Origin: Promethearchaeota archaeon | GTDB lineage: Archaea > Asgardarchaeota > Hermodarchaeia > Hermodarchaeales > Hermodarchaeaceae | Assembly (NCBI GenBank): GCA_048939625.1 | Contig: JBHLPH010000009.1 | Location: 1 to 64,000, forward strand | Reading direction: 5' to 3' | Length of the DNA stretch: 64,000 nt | In this document: one piece after another, positions 7,434 to 47,618 of the stretch | How positions within the stretch are numbered: the first letter of the stretch is position 1 | Layout: each line of letters begins with the position of its first letter | The notes under the pieces: model-generated | What the model was told of the DNA's origin: nothing | Seen by the model: only the letters and a program-made list of their open reading frames with translations | The model's database searches: none | Position numbers and translations under genes: made by a program

Positions 7434-7551
7434 GGGCTCGTAGCTTAGCCAGGCAGAGCGTCGGGCTCTTAAGCCAATTTCATTGGAGAAACCCGATTGT
7501 CGGGGGTTCGAAAGCAAATAATCTTGTCCGAAAATCCCCCCGAGCCCGCCA
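7434..7551 (+). tRNA. tRNA-Lys(CUU) with two BHB introns: 37/38 (7472..7490) and 59/60 (7513..7534); CCA encoded
   Basis: Acceptor GGGCTCG/CGAGCCC-G-CCA; anticodon CTT 7468-7470; BHB helices CUCU/GGAG and UUCG/CGAA with 3-nt bulges; splicing restores the TTCGAAT loop. Confidence 0.93.
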
Positions 7552-8633: not shown

Positions 8634-8733
8634 GCCTCGGTAGCTCAGTGGTAGAGCGACAGCCTCGTAAACTTCTTTTCTTTGTGGTCGAGTAAGCTGC
8701 TGGTCGTGGGTTCAATCCCCGCCCGAGGCTCCA
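8634..8733 (+). tRNA. tRNA-Thr(CGU) with BHB intron at 37/38 (8670..8694); CCA encoded
   Basis: Acceptor GCCTCGG/CCGAGGC-T-CCA; anticodon CGT 8666-8668; BHB CUCG-UAA...CGAG-UAA. Confidence 0.93.
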
Positions 8734-40177: not shown

Positions 40178-41014
40178 ATGACTTCGACGGGAAAGACTTT
40201 GTCAAAACCACGATTCTCTATTGATGATAAGATATGGCTCCGCCAATCCCCTTCTCTCGAAGAGGCCAGTGTATTAATTCAAAATGCAATTTCACAAAAA
40301 CGTTTCATCCTAATTATTGGAGTTTGTTTTGTTGAGTACCAGGGGCGAGCCCGTTCAATTCTAACTGAAGGGGAACGCCTTGTTCTCATAAAACGGGATG
40401 GCACGATACTTGTGCATAAGGAAAGTGGGGTTGAACCATTAAATTGGCAACCGCCTGGTGCAACAATGAAAGTCACATACGAGGAGGATACTCTCATTCT
40501 TTATGCTAATCGTGCTAAACCCCGTGAAACTGTTCGTATTGAATTTTCCTCCCTCACAATGCTAAGTGCTAGCCTGTTAGATGATCCAGGTGAATTCAGT
40601 ATGTATCTAACTGAAGATGAAATGCAACAGGTTCTTAGCACCCACCCCGAACTTATTGAGCCTGGTCTCCGGACCATTGGTCGAGAGCGTCAAGTCGCTC
40701 CCGGGTTCATTGATATATTTGCTCGCGATAGTGACGGACGTTTAGTGATTATTGAGGTGAAGCGCCGTCGAGCTGACAGCGAAGCAGTGCACCAACTTCA
40801 TGGCTATCTCAAAAGCTTTCAGAGTGAAGAGGGTACAGATATCCGAGGAATACTTGTTGCTCCAAGTCTTACTAAAGGTACTTTCACACTCTTAGAACAA
40901 CTTGGTTTGGAATATCGCAAAATTGAACCACAACAATGTGCAGCATATCTGCTTCAGAATAGTTCACATAAACTAACCGATTTCATTGCAAATTCGGAAC
41001 CAGACGAAGGCTAG
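40178..41014 (+). CDS. nucS: Mismatch-specific endonuclease NucS/EndoMS
   Basis: Y.GRA.S.L, K.DG...H, P.NWQPP, ID, E.KR, QL..Y. Confidence 0.95.
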   Translation: MTSTGKTLSKPRFSIDDKIWLRQSPSLEEASVLIQNAISQKRFILIIGVCFVEYQGRARSILTEGERLVLIKRDGTILVHKESGVEPLNWQPPGATMKVTYEEDTLILYANRAKPRETVRIEFSSLTMLSASLLDDPGEFSMYLTEDEMQQVLSTHPELIEPGLRTIGRERQVAPGFIDIFARDSDGRLVIIEVKRRRADSEAVHQLHGYLKSFQSEEGTDIRGILVAPSLTKGTFTLLEQLGLEYRKIEPQQCAAYLLQNSSHKLTDFIANSEPDEG

Positions 41015-41556
41015 CTAATACATGACCAGGCGATTTGTCTAAAGGCATCAGTAACACCCTGCCCTTCCTTCGCACTAGTCTCAAAATATCCCCAACCAAG
41101 CTGTTGTGCGTACGCCATTCCTTCATCAGTTGTAATCTGGCGTTCAACAGTTAAATCCACTTTGTTAGCCAACAACACAGTTGGTACAGCACCGGTAACC
41201 TGAGACACTTCGGTATACCACGCGGGGAGAGCATCAAATGTCTGACGGCGAGTCACATCATATACTAAAATCACACCTGCTGCTCCCCGATAAAATACCG
41301 GACGAACCGAACTAAAATGTGGTTGTCCAGCAAGATCCCATAACTGTAATCTGACTAGCGTATCTCCAAAATCGAGTTCTTTGACCGCGAAACTCGTACC
41401 AACTTTCATGTCCCATCTGAATTACAGATGGAATGTCATGATGTACGATTCGCGGAAATGTCCTTCAGTGTAACGGATGATAAGGCTGGTTTTTCCAACA
41501 GCCCCATCACCGACAACACAGACTTTGAGAACATACTGGCGTTGTTGTACACTCAT
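41011..41556 (-). CDS. Rab/Ras-like small GTPase, 171 aa after removal of a predicted 30-nt BHB intron: join(41556..41435, 41404..41011)
   Basis: AGGAG SD then ATG 41556; G1 GDGAVGKTS, G2 YIMT|VG restored by splicing, G3 WDLAGQ, G4 NKVD, G5 TSAK. The ORF track shows only the 3' part (41011..41409). Confidence 0.9.
41405..41434 (-). other. Predicted bulge-helix-bulge intron in mRNA (ATTCCATCTGTAATTCAGATGGGACATGAA)
   Basis: CAUG-AC^A-[UUCCAUCUG-uaauu-CAGAUGGGA]-CAUG-AA^A with exon-exon helix UCGUAC/GUACGA; contains in-frame TAA. Confidence 0.85.
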
Positions 41557-41726: not shown

Positions 41727-44699
41727 ATGCCGGTTTCAGAGCTCCCAAAGAAATTCGATATTCCTTCCTTAGAACAGGAGATACTGCAGTTCTGGAAGAA
41801 ACACCAAGTGTATGAAAAAGTCACTGAACTACTTCGTGATCGTCCTATCTTCCAATTCCTGGATGGTCCACCCTATACAACTGGTGCCATTCACCTTGGA
41901 ACAGCTTGGAACAAGATCATGAAAGATTTAATTCTAAGGTATCACCGAATGCGAGGTTTTCGAGTTATCGATACACCGGGATATGACATGCATGGATTAC
42001 CCATAGAGGTTCATGTTGAGAAAGAGCTGGGAGTTAAATCGAAACTTGATATTGAAAAGACAATTGGAGTTGACAAATTCATCCAAAGGTGTCAAGAATT
42101 TGCGCTCTCAAATTTAGATACTATGACGAAGCAATTTCAGCGATTAGGAGTTTGGATGGATTGGAATCGTCCTTACCGAACAATAGATAATCCCTACATT
42201 GAAGGAACTTGGTACTTGATGAAAAAGGCCCATGAACGCGGTTTCCTGTACCGGGGGTTGCGTTCTATTGATTGTTGTGTTCGGTGTGAAACAGCCATTG
42301 CGAAACGAGAACATGAGTATCATACCATTGAAGATTATTCAATTTGGGTTAAGTTCCCGATTGTTGATCGACCAAACGAATTCATAGTCATTTGGACCAC
42401 AACGCCTTGGACGTTACCGGCTAATATGGGCGTAATGGTCAATCCCGACTTCGAATATGTCAGAATTCGTGTGGATGATGAAGTATGGATTCTCGCAAAA
42501 GGACTTGCAAATGTTATTCTCCAAGCACTCTTAGACAAATCTTACGAAGTTCTTGAAGTAGTAAAAGGCTCAGATCTTCTCGGTCTCCGCTATAAACATC
42601 CCTTGACAGAGGAAGTTCCTCGTCAAGCAGAATTCCATCAAGAATATACTAAAGTGCATTCTATTGTTCTAAGCGATGAATATGTTACTCTAGAACAAGG
42701 AACAGGTCTAGTTCACATGGCGCCTGGACATGGTCCCCAAGACTTTGAAGTGGGTGAACGGGAAGAAATTCCTATTTTCTGTCCAGTTACGCTTTCTGGT
42801 GTTTTTTCAAAGGATGGTGGAAAATACGCAGGGATGAAGGTTCAAGAAGCCAATGAAGTAATTCTTACTGATCTACGAAAGAAAGGCCTGCTAGTTCACC
42901 AAGATACCATTGAGCACGAATACGCTCACTGCTGGCGATGTGGTAGCCCATTAGTCTATCTCGCTACAGATCAATGGTTCTTACGGGTGAGCGACCTTCG
43001 TAACGAGATAATCAAAAAGAATGAGGGTGTCCGATGGATACCTGATTGGGCAGGGCATACATGGTTTCGAAACTGGGTGCAAAATCTTCGGGATTGGTGT
43101 ATATCACGACAACGTTATTGGGGCTCACCTCTACCCATTTGGACCTGCGATAAATGCGATCATATCGAAGTTATCGGTAGTGCAGACGAATTAGCTGAAA
43201 AAAGTGGAAAGGTTGTTGAAAACCTTCATAAACCCTGGATTGATGAACCAACCTGGGGCTGTCCAAAATGTAAGGGTACAATGTCCCGGGTTCGCGATGT
43301 TTTAGATGTGTGGTTAGAAAGTGGATCTGCACCTTGGGCCACACGGTGGGCAACATATGGCACGAAAGATTTTGACAATTGGGAAACAGCGGAATTTATC
43401 ATTGAAGGCAAGGATCAAGTTAGCAGTTGGTTCAACACGCTCTTCAACTCAACTATGCTAGTTTCAGATCGAGAACCTTACAGAAACGTGTATATGCATG
43501 GATTCACCACCGATGAACATGGGCGACCGATGTCAAAATCAAAGGGTGTTGGAGTATTACCCGATGAAATAGTAGAGAAAGTAGGCGCAGAGACTCTCCG
43601 AATCTACAGCATCAAAAGTACCAGTCCCGGTGAAGACATGCATTTTCTATGGAAAGATGTTGAGGATACACGACGAAGCCTATCGATTTTATGGAACGTC
43701 TACGTTTTTGCTACTACTTTCATGAAAGCTGCGAACTACGATCCCAAGAAGCACAAATTTGAACCTAATAAGTTCCAGGATGAGGATCGTTGGATTCTTT
43801 CTCAGCTAAATCACCTCATCGAACAAGTAAGTGAGCGATTGGATAATTACGAATTACCATATGTCCCTCGGTTGATGGAAGACTTCATAGTCCGTGATCT
43901 TAGTCGATGGTATATCAAACTCATTCGTCCGAGAACTTGGATAAGCTCTAAAGATGAAACCAAAACTGCTGCATTCACAACGTTATACCATGTATTACGT
44001 ACGCTTCTGAGAGTTCTTGCTCCAGTTTTACCGTTTTTAACAGAGAAGATGTATCAGACACTTGTTCGTTCTGTCGAACCTGATGCACCAATTAGTGTTC
44101 ATATGCTCTCTTGGCCGTCTTCGGATTCGAAATTAATTGATCCCGAATTAAGCCAAGAAATGGAGTGGGTATCTGAAATCGTTGAAACCACACAGTATAT
44201 TCGCCAAGAAGAAGGGATAAAACTGCGGTGGCCTTGTCAACGCCTAATAATAGTACCATCAAAGAAGGAATTTCAATTAGACCACTTTAGCGAAGTTGTC
44301 GCCAATCAAACTAATGTTAAAACCGTAGATATTCAGAAAAGCGCAAAGGGGAAATCATTGAAAGAGAAGGAACTTTCCTTTGCTACATTATATCTTGATA
44401 TATCAGAATCTCCTGAACTCCGCGCCGAACGCCTTTCCCGAGATTTAATCCGTCAAATCCAAGCCACTAGAAAAAGGGAAGGTCTTCACGTGACACAAAA
44501 CATCGAGCTCTATGTAGCATCTCCTTCAGAGGATATTAGACAGGCGATAAAGGATATGAGTGAAGCCATCTCAACGAAAGTAGGAGCAATTAAGTTGAGT
44601 ATTAATGAAAGTATACCTGAGATAGCAAAAGCTGCTAAAGGAAAACTAACATTCAATGACCTTGAAATTAGCTTCACCTTTATCGTACAAAAGGAATAG
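41727..44699 (+). CDS. ileS: Isoleucine--tRNA ligase
   Basis: DGPPY, HLGT (HIGH), WTTTPWTLP.N, GTGLVH.APGHG, WCISRQRYWG, PMSKS. Confidence 0.97.
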   Translation: MPVSELPKKFDIPSLEQEILQFWKKHQVYEKVTELLRDRPIFQFLDGPPYTTGAIHLGTAWNKIMKDLILRYHRMRGFRVIDTPGYDMHGLPIEVHVEKELGVKSKLDIEKTIGVDKFIQRCQEFALSNLDTMTKQFQRLGVWMDWNRPYRTIDNPYIEGTWYLMKKAHERGFLYRGLRSIDCCVRCETAIAKREHEYHTIEDYSIWVKFPIVDRPNEFIVIWTTTPWTLPANMGVMVNPDFEYVRIRVDDEVWILAKGLANVILQALLDKSYEVLEVVKGSDLLGLRYKHPLTEEVPRQAEFHQEYTKVHSIVLSDEYVTLEQGTGLVHMAPGHGPQDFEVGEREEIPIFCPVTLSGVFSKDGGKYAGMKVQEANEVILTDLRKKGLLVHQDTIEHEYAHCWRCGSPLVYLATDQWFLRVSDLRNEIIKKNEGVRWIPDWAGHTWFRNWVQNLRDWCISRQRYWGSPLPIWTCDKCDHIEVIGSADELAEKSGKVVENLHKPWIDEPTWGCPKCKGTMSRVRDVLDVWLESGSAPWATRWATYGTKDFDNWETAEFIIEGKDQVSSWFNTLFNSTMLVSDREPYRNVYMHGFTTDEHGRPMSKSKGVGVLPDEIVEKVGAETLRIYSIKSTSPGEDMHFLWKDVEDTRRSLSILWNVYVFATTFMKAANYDPKKHKFEPNKFQDEDRWILSQLNHLIEQVSERLDNYELPYVPRLMEDFIVRDLSRWYIKLIRPRTWISSKDETKTAAFTTLYHVLRTLLRVLAPVLPFLTEKMYQTLVRSVEPDAPISVHMLSWPSSDSKLIDPELSQEMEWVSEIVETTQYIRQEEGIKLRWPCQRLIIVPSKKEFQLDHFSEVVANQTNVKTVDIQKSAKGKSLKEKELSFATLYLDISESPELRAERLSRDLIRQIQATRKREGLHVTQNIELYVASPSEDIRQAIKDMSEAISTKVGAIKLSINESIPEIAKAAKGKLTFNDLEISFTFIVQKE

Positions 44700-44746
44700 G
44701 TGTGCCAATACATTTAAGCTAAGGGAAATTATCTCAACTTCCATAA

Positions 44747-44892
44747 GGGCACGTGGCTTAGCCTGATGGAGCGCCGAACTACCGCGCTTAACGCGTGGAG
44801 TGTGTATGCCTTATATGGAGTCGCTCCGAACATTCGTTTGCGAAACCTAGGTAAGCCGGAGGTCGCGGGTTTGAATCCCGCCGTGCCCACCA
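44747..44892 (+). tRNA. tRNA-Ile(UAU) with two BHB introns: 29/30 (44777..44807) and 37/38 (44816..44853); CCA encoded
   Basis: Acceptor GGGCACG/CGTGCCC-A-CCA; spliced anticodon arm CCGGC-CT-TAT-AA-GCCGG; BHB helices GCGC/GUGU and CUUA/UAGG. Confidence 0.87.
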
Positions 44893-44895
44893 CTC

Positions 44896-46428
44896 TTATT
44901 TGGATTTTCCTTTTCTTCTCTGTTCAAATTTCTTAGCCACTGTTTCGAAGTCTTCACCGAAAGCAGTTTCTTTGGTTTTCCGTTCACGCACTTGAATAAA
45001 GACAGGGTATCGCGTAGCTTGCCCTACTACTAATGCTTCTCCTACACTGAGGCTTGAAATCGATGTTAAGGTTGCTTTAGTGATTTTTTCAGAAGTAGCT
45101 CTTATGTGATCTAAGTCATATGGATTAGTAATTCGAAGAAAAATATTCGAACCACATTGTGAAAGAACCGTTGTTGAGAGTCGAACAGGTCGTTGGGAAA
45201 TTACACACAAGGAGAGGCTGTATTTTCGACCCTCCCGAGCAATGGTTTCAAGAATACCCTTTGAAAAAGCAAGAGCCCGTCGAGCCTCTGGGCAGAATTG
45301 ATGGCTTTCTTCAAGAAATACAATTGTAGGGGGAATTTCTTCATCTCGTCGTAAGTCAAAAAGATGACGAAGAATAGCATCCACGATAATCTGCTTCTTT
45401 TGCAAACTCACTGTCTCGCTCATATCGAGAATCACCCCATGACCAGGCTTCATGAGCTTCTTCCATTCCGGGGTTGAAGTCTTTCCGAATAGATTGAGAC
45501 TTTGCAGATTGTCTAACCATCCAAGAAGCGCTTCCCTTGTACGGGTATTAATTGAAGGATCTTTTTCTAAGGCTGATATCAAATCGCTTAAATCATAAGG
45601 TTGTCCTTTTCGGACAGACCGTAGAGTTCTAATTACTCTAGTTAACTCACGAACTTGGATAGTACCCATTTCAGGTGAATAGGTAGCAAAGGCTTTTGCG
45701 TTCATCGCTGGTGTGGCAAGTTCAATTAATGGACTCCGAATTACTACTAACCGTTCCTCAGCATCTTTTCCCCTTATCTCTTGAGATTCTGTTAAACCGG
45801 TATATTCACCATGAACATCAATTACTAAAACTGCTGGACGTCCTTGGCTGGCTTTCCTGGAAAAGAGCTCTTCTAGCATAACAGCAGCAGCATAACTTTT
45901 ACCTGCTCCACTCATGGCTAAGAGGGCAACGTGTTTCTGATATAACTTAGTTAAATTGAACAAAGCGGGAACATTATGAAAAAGTAACTGACCAAGATGA
46001 AGGCCATCCTTTTCAAATCCCAGGAAATCAGATAGCAGTTTTGAGTCTGGTGTAGAAACAACTGCACCGGGTGAGGGTGGGTAAGTAATACGTTGAATAC
46101 GCCCTTTCTCAAAAATCCCCAACGGTTTAGCTTGTGCTAAGACATATTCCCACCGATCGATAGGAAAAATTGCTCCAAAGGGTTTTCCTTGGCGCGTAAA
46201 CTCGTGCACGGCATCAACTTGCGAGAAATAACGATTTGTCTTGAAAACCTGTTCGACATGGGCAATTACCACTCCCTCTTCAGTTTCAACTGAAACGTAC
46301 TGTCCAACATGAACGGGTATCTTTCTATCATTATTTAGTTCATCACGTTTTCCGATGACAAAGGATATCTTCTCTGTCGACGGGCCATCTTCTGTGCATA
46401 CAACAGTTCCAAGTGTTTCCTGGGTCAT
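44896..46428 (-). CDS. herA: HerA DNA helicase/translocase
   Basis: HAS barrel, H.A.LA.SGAGKS, D.HGEY, EESH.F.P, IAREGRKY, SQRP. Confidence 0.92.
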   Translation of the reverse strand: MTQETLGTVVCTEDGPSTEKISFVIGKRDELNNDRKIPVHVGQYVSVETEEGVVIAHVEQVFKTNRYFSQVDAVHEFTRQGKPFGAIFPIDRWEYVLAQAKPLGIFEKGRIQRITYPPSPGAVVSTPDSKLLSDFLGFEKDGLHLGQLLFHNVPALFNLTKLYQKHVALLAMSGAGKSYAAAVMLEELFSRKASQGRPAVLVIDVHGEYTGLTESQEIRGKDAEERLVVIRSPLIELATPAMNAKAFATYSPEMGTIQVRELTRVIRTLRSVRKGQPYDLSDLISALEKDPSINTRTREALLGWLDNLQSLNLFGKTSTPEWKKLMKPGHGVILDMSETVSLQKKQIIVDAILRHLFDLRRDEEIPPTIVFLEESHQFCPEARRALAFSKGILETIAREGRKYSLSLCVISQRPVRLSTTVLSQCGSNIFLRITNPYDLDHIRATSEKITKATLTSISSLSVGEALVVGQATRYPVFIQVRERKTKETAFGEDFETVAKKFEQRRKGKSK

Positions 46429-46445: not shown

Positions 46446-47618
46446 TTAATGAAACGGCATTCTTTCCCGACGGAGTTTCAACAGACTCTGAGGATAACCT
46501 ATTCGATTTGCTAATTGCGTAAATAGAAAGTCAAGATCACGTTCAATTAACCGCGCCTGAGAATCTGCGTCAATGAGCACAGTGGGAAGAGCAAATCCTT
46601 CATTCTCAGAGGACATTGGAAGTAGTATCGAACTTACTTTTTCTACAATCCGCGCTGGATCAAAGGAACCTGTAAAAATCTCAATTCTTAGAGGATAATC
46701 AAATTGCGCGGTTCGCAGATAAATACAGACAAGATTTCTATTGTTTAAGACATCCTCAGCATCCACCTCAAGTGAGTCATCGAATTTTTCTCCATTTAAT
46801 CGCATTATTGGTGATCGTTCACCAACATCAAGTGTTCTGAAAAAGAAATCAGTATCGTAACTGGTTCGTAATATTGTTCGATAATCCATCTGTAACAAGG
46901 ATTTCAAACCTGCATGTTGTTTTATCAGATGTGGTAGAATCTCGCCAAATATCTTAATGAATAGTTGGCTTCGACTATCTTTCACAACTCCAGCTAGCAA
47001 CGTTCCTGTTTCACGAGTTTTTTCATAAAGTTCATCAAAGAGTGCTGTAATCCGTTCATATTTTGCCGAGAATACTGATTGATTGGAAGGCCGATCACTG
47101 ATATGTGGCCTTAGTGACCCATCTAGTAAAAGCAGTTCTACAGGATGATGATCTTGAACGCGGATTGCCAATTCAAGTTCAGCCCTGAGTCTTTCGAGAG
47201 AAGCACTCACCTCTGCTTCACGCCAAGATATGGGATTTAATTCTGCTTTCACCGTCGGGGGCGTCGATTTTTCAGGAAAATAGATTGCTGATACCCGATT
47301 TGATGGTGTAAACTCAAAAATTGTAGCACAAGCACGGGTAATTACAAGTTCGATACCTCGCAGGGTCTTCTTAAGGAGTCCTCCATCAACACCACCCACG
47401 CGCAGTCCAGTAAGATCAATTGGTTTCACGGTTTGTGCAAGTTGAGCATCACATAGATACTGTTGGGCTAACGGAATGTTTTCATGTAAATTCAGCCTTT
47501 GACGTTCACCTCGAATTATCGATGCAAACGAATTTCTTTTTTCTTCAATGACCTGAATTTTATCTGCAATCTTCTGTATCGTCTCATCGAGCGCCCAAAG
47601 CTCCCTAATTGTTTTCAT
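46446..47618 (-). CDS. nurA: NurA nuclease
   Basis: GVDG, LLDGSL, GVVK.S, P..L..AD; paired with herA. Confidence 0.9.
   Translation of the reverse strand: MKTIRELWALDETIQKIADKIQVIEEKRNSFASIIRGERQRLNLHENIPLAQQYLCDAQLAQTVKPIDLTGLRVGGVDGGLLKKTLRGIELVITRACATIFEFTPSNRVSAIYFPEKSTPPTVKAELNPISWREAEVSASLERLRAELELAIRVQDHHPVELLLLDGSLRPHISDRPSNQSVFSAKYERITALFDELYEKTRETGTLLAGVVKDSRSQLFIKIFGEILPHLIKQHAGLKSLLQMDYRTILRTSYDTDFFFRTLDVGERSPIMRLNGEKFDDSLEVDAEDVLNNRNLVCIYLRTAQFDYPLRIEIFTGSFDPARIVEKVSSILLPMSSENEGFALPTVLIDADSQARLIERDLDFLFTQLANRIGYPQSLLKLRRERMPFH

What the first reader, a model, noticed from the sequence alone, without database searches (positions are those of the whole stretch)
44747..44892. Rare tRNA-Ile(UAU), hidden by two introns, directly downstream of ileS
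Seen: removing BHB introns 44777..44807 and 44816..44853 gives a perfect anticodon arm CCGGC-CU-UAU-AA-GCCGG, discriminator A73 and encoded CCA; the gene starts 47 nt after the ileS stop. Established: most archaea read AUA with agmatidine-modified tRNA-Ile(CAU) made by TiaS. UAU anticodons are exceptional in archaea (reported for Nanoarchaeum and Korarchaeum) but standard, and intron-containing, in eukaryotes. Inference: eukaryote-like AUA decoding, possibly with intron-dependent U34/U36 modification, and an IleRS adapted to it.
Basis: partly seen in the sequence, partly recalled or inferred. Interest (0 to 1): 0.78.

Follow-up and report, generated by a model that had tools for sequence, protein, structure and literature searches.

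The report
Two-intron Asgard tRNA-Ile(UAU) behind ileS
This is a real isoleucine tRNA gene with a UAU anticodon, hidden by two introns, that very probably reads the AUA codon in a Hermod-type Asgard archaeon lacking the usual archaeal enzyme TiaS. A few other archaea are known to read AUA this way, but its anticodon-side intron carries a conserved, unexplained element.

Summary
Removing 44777-44807 (position 29/30) and 44816-44853 (37/38) gives a complete cloverleaf with loop CU-UAU-AA, A73 and an encoded CCA, 47 nt after the ileS stop.

An ortholog that lacks intron 1 reads the spliced junction contiguously. Intron 1's inner helix has compensatory changes at 8 of 9 pairs.

TiaS is missing from this genome and from all 18 other genomes of its family. 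It is missing from 216 of 400 Asgard genomes, family by family. My own search found 35 tRNA genes here, only two with CAU (an initiator and one elongator-like). AUA makes up 14.5% of Ile codons.

So the tRNA most likely replaces the TiaS/tRNA-Ile2(CAU) route, as published for Nanoarchaeum, Korarchaeum and ARMAN. "Rare" is overstated within Asgard. The same gene follows ileS in five Asgard lineages and one DPANN genome. This scan has also found it on other Asgard DNA.

Nothing suggests a specially adapted IleRS.

The part that may be new is in the 37/38 intron. It pairs with D-arm positions 21-26, with covariation, and carries ACA at intron positions 15-17 in every Asgard copy examined. This may mean intron-dependent modification, but that is untested.

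The parts
41727..44699 (+). ileS, isoleucyl-tRNA synthetase (990 aa)
   Evidence: ORF. Pfam tRNA-synt_1 (2e-116), Anticodon_1 and DUF5915. Orthologs of 68-87% identity in Hermodarchaeota MAGs.
44705..44719 (+). Conserved promoter-like motif CCAAYACATTTAAGC (TATA-like ATTTAAG about 32 nt before the tRNA 5' end)
   Evidence: Nearly invariant in 12 Hermod orthologs while the flanking spacer varies. Its function as a BRE/TATA promoter element is inferred.
44747..44776 (+). tRNA-Ile(UAU) exon 1: acceptor 5' strand, D arm and positions 26-29
   Evidence: Identical in 11 orthologs.
44777..44807 (+). Intron 1 at position 29/30, relaxed BHB motif (central helix plus inner helix, no outer helix)
   Evidence: BHB score: H 4 bp, h' 3 bp, h 0. 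Inner helix has 8 of 9 pairs with double changes. Absent exactly at these boundaries in L008. The 3' end GUGUGUAW is conserved.
44808..44815 (+). Exon 2 (8 nt, positions 30-37); anticodon UAU at 44812-44814
   Evidence: Invariant in all orthologs.
44816..44853 (+). Intron 2 at the canonical position 37/38, strict hBHBh' motif (central helix CUUA/UAGG, bulges UA^U and UA^A)
   Evidence: BHB score: H 4 bp, h' 2 bp, h 2 bp. A 37/38 intron is present in every lineage examined.
44822..44832 (+). Conserved element inside intron 2: CGCTCC(G) complementary to tRNA positions (20)21-26 (44767-44773), then A, then ACA at 44830-44832
   Evidence: 54 of 54 cells paired in 9 lineages, with double changes; other registers give 7-35 of 54. 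The helix is part of the RNAfold minimum-free-energy (MFE) structure. ACA at intron positions 15-17 in 7 lineages and in 9 of 9 hits of a pattern that did not specify it.
44854..44892 (+). Exon 3: positions 38-76, T arm with U56 (TTTGAAT), A73 and encoded CCA
   Evidence: All 29 confidently called tRNA 3' ends of this genome also encode CCA.

Best explanation
The locus encodes a functional pre-tRNA-Ile(UAU). It is probably transcribed from its own conserved promoter in the 47-nt spacer after ileS.

The archaeal splicing endonuclease cuts two bulge-helix-bulge motifs: a strict one at 37/38 and a relaxed one at 29/30. Two EndA paralogs are encoded, which fits a broad-specificity two-subunit enzyme. 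Ligation of the 30-nt, 8-nt and 39-nt exons gives a 77-nt tRNA that already carries CCA.

The mature tRNA is charged by the neighbouring IleRS and reads AUA. In this lineage it replaces the usual archaeal pair of TiaS and tRNA-Ile2(CAU).

Shown: gene anatomy, intron boundaries, conservation and covariation, lack of a detectable TiaS gene in the family, AUA usage.

Inferred: splicing in vivo, charging with Ile, restriction of U34 to A-ending codons by some modification.
For: Gene and anatomy:
- Rfam tRNA match.
- A unique cloverleaf solution with BHB motifs.
- L008 lacks intron 1 at exactly the predicted junction.
- Compensatory changes in intron 1's helix.
- Exons invariant across orthologs whose IleRS proteins have diverged to 75-83% identity.
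- A19/U56 in place of the usual G19/C56 elbow pair, seen in the D and T loops.

TiaS:
- TiaS_FLD is absent here and in 0 of 18 other genomes of the family, while all 4 archaeal control genomes match.
- 0 of 5 genomes from other lineages that carry this tRNA behind ileS have TiaS.

tRNA set and codon use:
- Only two CAU tRNAs among the 35 tRNA genes found in my own search.
- AUA is 11.1 per 1000 codons in 850 long ORFs. ileS itself contains 17 AUA codons.

Processing and precedent:
- Two EndA catalytic-domain genes.
- Published precedent in ARMAN, including in vitro splicing of a pre-tRNA-Ile(UAU) (PMC3239211).
Against: - There are no expression, splicing, charging or modification data.
- The genome is 87.6% complete and about 11 expected anticodons were not found. 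A third CAU tRNA or a tiaS gene on unassembled DNA cannot be excluded for this one genome, though the family-wide absence makes it unlikely.
- Intron 1's BHB lacks an outer helix, and its central helix competes with the D stem.
- An unmodified U34 would be expected to misread AUG, so an unknown modification has to be assumed.
Confidence: 0.87

Rival explanations
1. The true product has another anticodon, because the introns are placed differently. Examples are the single-intron models that give Gly(ACC), Met(CAU), Asp or Thr.
Against: The isotype changes from ortholog to ortholog for identical exons. The models need long variable arms and have poor or no BHB. L008 carries the UAU arm contiguously. 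No TCAT occurs in the region.
Confidence: 0.02
2. The gene is a decaying or non-functional tRNA-like relic, and AUA is read by an undetected TiaS/tRNA-Ile2(CAU) pair. One candidate for tRNA-Ile2 would be the CAU tRNA at contig C46:4125-4308.
For: The genome is incomplete. The C46 CAU tRNA shares its D arm, variable loop and T stem with the UAU tRNA.
Against: Exons are invariant, intron changes are compensatory and the promoter motif is conserved. TiaS is absent in 0 of 18 other family genomes of 72-91% completeness, and in whole other families such as 0 of 135. A Met elongator tRNA is needed anyway, and only one elongator-like CAU gene was found.
Confidence: 0.04
3. The tRNA is functional, but its position after ileS reflects a regulatory link rather than simple synteny. 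The pre-tRNA, or its conserved intron element, would be sensed by IleRS or would control ileS expression.
For: The ileS-tRNA(UAU) order is kept in five Asgard lineages and one DPANN genome, 15-220 nt apart.
Against: The tRNA has its own conserved promoter-like motif. A Loki-type genome keeps the tRNA elsewhere. No attenuator-like structure was looked for or seen.
Confidence: 0.07

Closest known systems
tRNA-Ile(UAU) ('tRNA-Ile3') of Nanoarchaeum equitans and Ca. Korarchaeum cryptofilum (PMC6000648; tRNAscan-SE 2.0 preprint 10.1101/614032)
   Same: An archaeal UAU-anticodon tRNA stands in for tRNA-Ile2(CAU). The Korarchaeum gene has an intron.
   Different: This one is in Asgard archaea (Hermod type), has two introns including one in the anticodon stem at 29/30, lies directly behind ileS, and carries a conserved intron element. 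I found no paper in the searchable library that holds both TiaS and Asgard, or both TiaS and Lokiarchaeota.
pre-tRNA-Ile(UAU) of ARMAN-2, -4 and -5 (Fujishima et al. 2011, PMC3239211)
   Same: UAU anticodon, no TiaS and no tRNA-Ile(CAU). A canonical 37/38 intron with a strict hBHBh' motif, cut in vitro by a broad-specificity endonuclease.
   Different: ARMAN has a single 25-nt intron and an epsilon2-type endonuclease. Here there are two introns and two separate EndA paralogs. Whether the ARMAN intron has the D-arm complement or the ACA is not known to me.
Eukaryotic tRNA-Ile(UAU) with intron-dependent pseudouridines 34 and 36 (Szweykowska-Kulinska 1994, as cited in PMC11685878; the three-intron gene of Cyanidioschyzon merolae, PMC9602550)
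   Same: UAU anticodon, an obligatory intron next to the anticodon and, in C. merolae, several BHB-type introns. IleRS is of the shared archaeal/eukaryotic type.
   Different: No modification has been shown here. The eukaryotic enzyme is Pus1, and no counterpart was tested. The similarity may be ancestral or convergent.
Multi-intron tRNA genes of Thermoproteales and other archaea with relaxed BHB motifs at non-canonical positions (reviewed in PMC4090602)
   Same: Several introns per gene, relaxed motifs in stems and a two-subunit endonuclease.
   Different: A different phylum. Within Hermodarchaeota the intron set varies between orthologs: 29/30 is lost in L008, and D-loop or T-arm introns are gained in L008, L011 and L018.

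Membership tests
Archaeal tRNA-Ile(UAU) AUA decoder of TiaS-less archaea | Complete cloverleaf with anticodon UAU after intron removal | tested here: met
   Contiguous arm in L008.
Archaeal tRNA-Ile(UAU) AUA decoder of TiaS-less archaea | No tiaS gene | tested here: met
   PF08489 gives 0 matches in this genome (87.6% complete) and in 0 of 18 other family genomes. All 4 archaeal controls match.
Archaeal tRNA-Ile(UAU) AUA decoder of TiaS-less archaea | No tRNA-Ile2(CAU) | tested here: inconclusive
   Only an initiator (C36:50592-50669) and one elongator-like CAU tRNA (C46:4125-4308) were found among 35 tRNA genes. About 11 expected anticodons were not found and the genome is incomplete.
Archaeal tRNA-Ile(UAU) AUA decoder of TiaS-less archaea | Charged with isoleucine and reads AUA | not testable with these tools
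   Indirect only: A73, C4:G69 and U12:A23 are present, AUA is 14.5% of Ile codons, and IleRS keeps the Arg-containing C-terminal motif.
BHB-intron pre-tRNA cut by the archaeal splicing endonuclease | Two 3-nt bulges separated by a 4-bp helix, flanked by at least one further helix, at each intron | tested here: met
   Intron 2 is strict (H 4 bp, h' 2 bp, h 2 bp). Intron 1 is relaxed (H 4 bp, h' 3 bp, h 0).
BHB-intron pre-tRNA cut by the archaeal splicing endonuclease | The endonuclease is encoded in the genome | tested here: met
   Two PF01974 matches of 106 and 69 bits. The subunit type is inferred, not shown.
Box H/ACA guide RNA (considered for the intron 2 element) | Hairpin with a pseudouridylation pocket, a K-turn or K-loop, and ACA 3' of the lower stem | tested here: not met
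   Only the helix-plus-ACA part is present. No pocket or K-turn is visible in the 38 nt. No Rfam family other than tRNA matches on this strand at E up to 1.
Box C/D guide inside a tRNA intron (Haloferax tRNA-Trp type) | Box C (RUGAUGA) and box D (CUGA) | tested here: not met
   Neither motif occurs in 44816-44853.

The most novel reading that the evidence does not exclude
The 37/38 intron would be a cis-acting docking element rather than a passive insert. Its positions 7-13 pair with D-arm positions 20-26 and are followed by one nucleotide and ACA.

This presents the anticodon loop on a hairpin with the same count as a tRNA acceptor/T-arm minihelix: a 7-nt loop, a 12-nt strand, N, then CCA or ACA. 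A PUA-domain enzyme such as Cbf5 could then dock on the precursor. That would allow modification of the anticodon loop, for example pseudouridine at 34 or 36, before splicing.

If so, it would be an archaeal counterpart, possibly the forerunner, of the intron-dependent pseudouridine-A-pseudouridine anticodon of eukaryotic tRNA-Ile(UAU).
Probability: 0.15. Interest if true: 0.8.

Novelty: new member of a known kind. Interest (0 to 1): 0.52.

Why it matters
AUA decoding is one of the few places where the three domains use different chemistry: lysidine, agmatidine and pseudouridine-A-pseudouridine or inosine.

This locus adds a Hermod-type case to a pattern that covers about half of the sampled Asgard genomes. 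These are the closest archaeal relatives of eukaryotes. In that half there is no TiaS, and wherever I looked there is instead an intron-bearing tRNA-Ile(UAU), as in eukaryotes.

A 2022 review (PMC8879553) still states that the UAU anticodon was "rescued" in Eukarya. These data suggest that the switch may predate eukaryotes.

The conserved intron element gives a concrete, testable handle on whether the intron is needed for an anticodon modification.

Practically, standard tRNA finders miss or mislabel this gene, so AUA appears to have no decoder in such genomes.

Tried and rejected
- Default ARAGORN found nothing.
- The whole-genome Rfam tRNA search missed this gene at E<=0.001 and listed only 18 tRNAs. 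At E<=10 it gave 28. It is therefore unusable for a full tRNA inventory.
- My intron-aware finder resolves the window gene and 22 others. With relaxed BHB rules it produces many false models. An anticodon-first search and a relaxed acceptor+CCA search gave only noise. The tRNA set therefore stays incomplete at 35 genes.
- The finder failed to resolve fully the four- to five-intron orthologs L008, L011, L016, L017, L018 and L020. I read these by eye.
- The 14-nt pattern GCGCCGGCCTTATA returned mostly chance hits in bacterial coding DNA from metagenomes. Only L149, L190 and L202 were tRNAs.
- The same pattern with one mismatch gave no tRNA-Ile in five Loki, Baldr and Sif genomes. The Loki-type gene was found instead through Rfam hits.
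- Box C/D and classical H/ACA readings of intron 2 were rejected because the boxes, pocket and K-turn are missing.
- A GGAG-UCG-CUCC hairpin in intron 2 was rejected because most orthologs have a U.U mismatch there.
- An IleRS specially adapted to U34 was considered and not supported (PMC11685878).

Full report
**What is there.** The window comes from a Hermodarchaeota-type Asgard MAG of 2.31 Mb in 83 contigs, 87.6% complete. The ORF at 41727-44699 is ileS. A tRNA gene starts 47 nt later and runs from 44747 to 44892.

Rfam's tRNA model matches 44747-44889 at 39.6 bits, with 80 nt looped out of the anticodon arm. Default ARAGORN misses the gene. Its one-intron mode gives a poor Gly(ACC) model. 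On orthologs with identical exons that mode calls Met, Asp, Ile or Thr, so those models are artefacts.

**Intron boundaries.** I enumerated every one- and two-intron way of building a 5-bp stem with a 7-nt loop from the insert. Only one solution contains a full bulge-helix-bulge (BHB) motif: introns at 44777-44807 and 44816-44853, loop CU-UAU-AA.

- Intron 2 lies at the canonical 37/38 site. Its central helix is CUUA/UAGG, its bulges are UA^U and UA^A, and it has two flanking helices.
- Intron 1 lies at 29/30 in the anticodon stem. It is relaxed: central helix GCGC/GUGU, a 3-bp inner helix and no outer helix.

An intron-aware finder that I wrote returns this same solution as its best model.

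**Comparative proof.** Fourteen Hermod-type loci carry the gene in the same place behind ileS. In eleven of them the exon stretches tested match without a mismatch, although their IleRS proteins are only 75-83% identical.

L008 lacks intron 1 and reads GCGCCGGCCTTATA without interruption. That fixes both boundaries of intron 1. L008 carries extra introns in the D loop and the T arm, and L011 and L018 each carry an extra intron in the T arm. Introns therefore come and go while the mature sequence stays the same.

On a 14-sequence alignment, intron 1's inner helix has double compensatory changes at 8 of 9 pairs. 97.7% of cells are paired, against 27-48% when the partner columns are slid. None of 500 shuffles reaches the observed covariation.

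The Hermod tRNA also has A19 with U56 where this genome's other tRNAs have G19 with C56. This reads as a compensated change in the elbow pair.

**Does it replace TiaS?**

- The TiaS_FLD family finds nothing in this genome, while all four archaeal control genomes match.
- Across 400 Asgard genomes, 184 have it, and the split follows families. Examples are 0 of 18 in the window's own family, 0 of 135 and 0 of 14 in two others, and 22 of 22 or 12 of 12 elsewhere.
- Five genomes from other lineages have tRNA-Ile(UAU) right behind ileS: LC30, a complete Atabeyarchaeum chromosome, an Odin MAG, Borrarchaeum and an Undinarchaeota MAG. All five lack TiaS.
- Three Loki-type genomes also lack it, while Baldrarchaeum has it.
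- In the single-contig Loki-type genome of Harpocratesius I found a one-intron tRNA-Ile(UAU) far from ileS.
- A pattern for the UAU arm hit 9 of 400 genomes, all in TiaS-less families.

In the window's own genome I could identify 35 tRNA genes by combining Rfam, ARAGORN, my finder and reading by eye. Every one encodes CCA. Only two have CAU. One is an initiator (AGCGGGG...CCCCGCU). The other is a three-intron, elongator-like gene at C46:4125-4308, which I take to be tRNA-Met. tRNA-Ile(GAU) is at C36:45954-46058.

About 11 expected anticodons are missing from this set, so the absence of a third CAU gene is only suggestive. AUA is 11.1 per 1000 codons and 14.5% of Ile codons in 850 long ORFs. 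ileS itself has 17 AUA codons, so a decoder is needed.

**Processing and expression.** Two genes carry the EndA catalytic domain. From published work on Crenarchaeota and ARMAN (PMC3239211), this fits a two-subunit, broad-specificity enzyme that can cut relaxed motifs. The spacer holds a motif, CCAAYACATTTAAGC, that is nearly invariant in 12 orthologs while its flanks vary. I read it as the tRNA's own BRE/TATA promoter, which is an inference.

**IleRS.** The C-terminal motif RDLIRQIQATRKR aligns with yeast IleRS, with Arg opposite chain residue 999 of 8wnd_A. The alignment is weak and I did not verify the numbering. PMC11685878 reports that archaeal and eukaryotic IleRS recognise all N34 variants through one conserved Arg. 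I therefore see no sign of, and no need for, a special adaptation.

**What is known.** tRNA-Ile(UAU) without TiaS is published for Nanoarchaeum and Korarchaeum and for ARMAN, where the intron-bearing precursor was spliced in vitro. No paper in the searchable library holds both TiaS and Asgard or Lokiarchaeota. A 2022 review places the return of UAU in Eukarya.

Earlier notes of this scan report the same gene on other Asgard DNA. I used them as leads only and re-tested what I cite.

**The unexplained part.** Intron 2 is far more conserved than intron 1.

- Its positions 7-12 (CGCUCC) are complementary to tRNA positions 21-26 (GGAGCG). In nine lineages all 54 cells pair in this register, against 7-35 in other registers. 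The double changes include A23:U to G23:C, G22:C to A:U, and G21:C to A:U.
- RNAfold places this helix in the minimum-free-energy structure of the whole precursor.
- One nucleotide further on, ACA occupies intron positions 15-17 in every Asgard copy. That covers seven lineages, and 9 of 9 hits of a search whose pattern did not specify those bases. The flanking bases vary.
- The D-arm pairing is not kept in the Loki-type gene, but the ACA is.
- The Undinarchaeota intron and an 18-nt metagenome intron keep the pairing but not the ACA.

Counting from the anticodon loop gives 7 loop nucleotides (32-37 plus intron position 1), then 12 nucleotides, then one, then ACA. These are the same numbers as the T loop, positions 61-72, N73 and CCA. 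However, the upper five positions pair only at 31 with intron position 2, and mostly at 29 with intron position 4.

There is no box C/D, no K-turn, no pseudouridylation pocket, and no Rfam hit other than tRNA on this strand. [quoted passage not shown] A Cbf5-like gene is present.

The idea that the intron recruits such an enzyme to the anticodon loop is attractive, but it is entirely untested. I give it about 15%.

**Verdict.** It overstates rarity within Asgard, and it is unsupported on IleRS adaptation. This is a sound new member of a known kind, with one conserved intron feature that deserves an experiment.

Noticed in passing
window 7434-7551 (+): A second hidden tRNA gene, tRNA-Lys(CUU), with two introns: one at 37/38 and one in the T loop near 59/60. 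Rfam at gathering threshold and default ARAGORN both missed it.
   Followed up: partly
window 8634-8733 (+): tRNA-Thr(CGU) with a 25-nt canonical intron. Rfam scores it at 54.7 bits. Default ARAGORN misses it; the intron mode finds it.
   Followed up: partly
window 44767-44779 versus 44816-44831: The tail of exon 1 plus the start of intron 1 (TGGAGCGCCGAAC) resembles the start of intron 2 (TGGAGTCGCTCCGAAC). The motif CCGAAC therefore occurs both at the 5' splice site of intron 1 and inside intron 2. This may reflect an old duplication or competing pairings.
   Followed up: no
window 41011-41409 (-) and 40178-41014 (+): A Ras/Roc-family small GTPase (a typical Asgard eukaryotic signature protein) lies upstream of ileS on the opposite strand, overlapping the end of a NucS endonuclease gene.
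   Followed up: no
window 44896-46428 (-) and 46446-47618 (-): A HerA helicase gene and a NurA nuclease gene converge on the tRNA. The HerA stop lies 4 nt from the tRNA's CCA.
   Followed up: no
genome contig C46:4125-4308 (-): An elongator-like tRNA(CAU), probably Met, with three introns: two in the anticodon arm and one in the T loop. Its D arm, variable loop and T stem closely resemble those of the UAU tRNA.
   Followed up: partly
genome-wide (G000): All 29 confidently called tRNA 3' ends listed encode CCA, and well over half of the tRNA genes found carry one to three introns. Default tools therefore report only 18-26 tRNAs for this genome.
   Followed up: partly
L022-L062 (Loki-type ileS loci): Loki-type IleRS genes continue past the region aligned to the window's IleRS into a Cys-rich, zinc-finger-like stretch (CP..C...C.YC) that is absent from the Hermod enzyme. 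They have no tRNA downstream.
   Followed up: no
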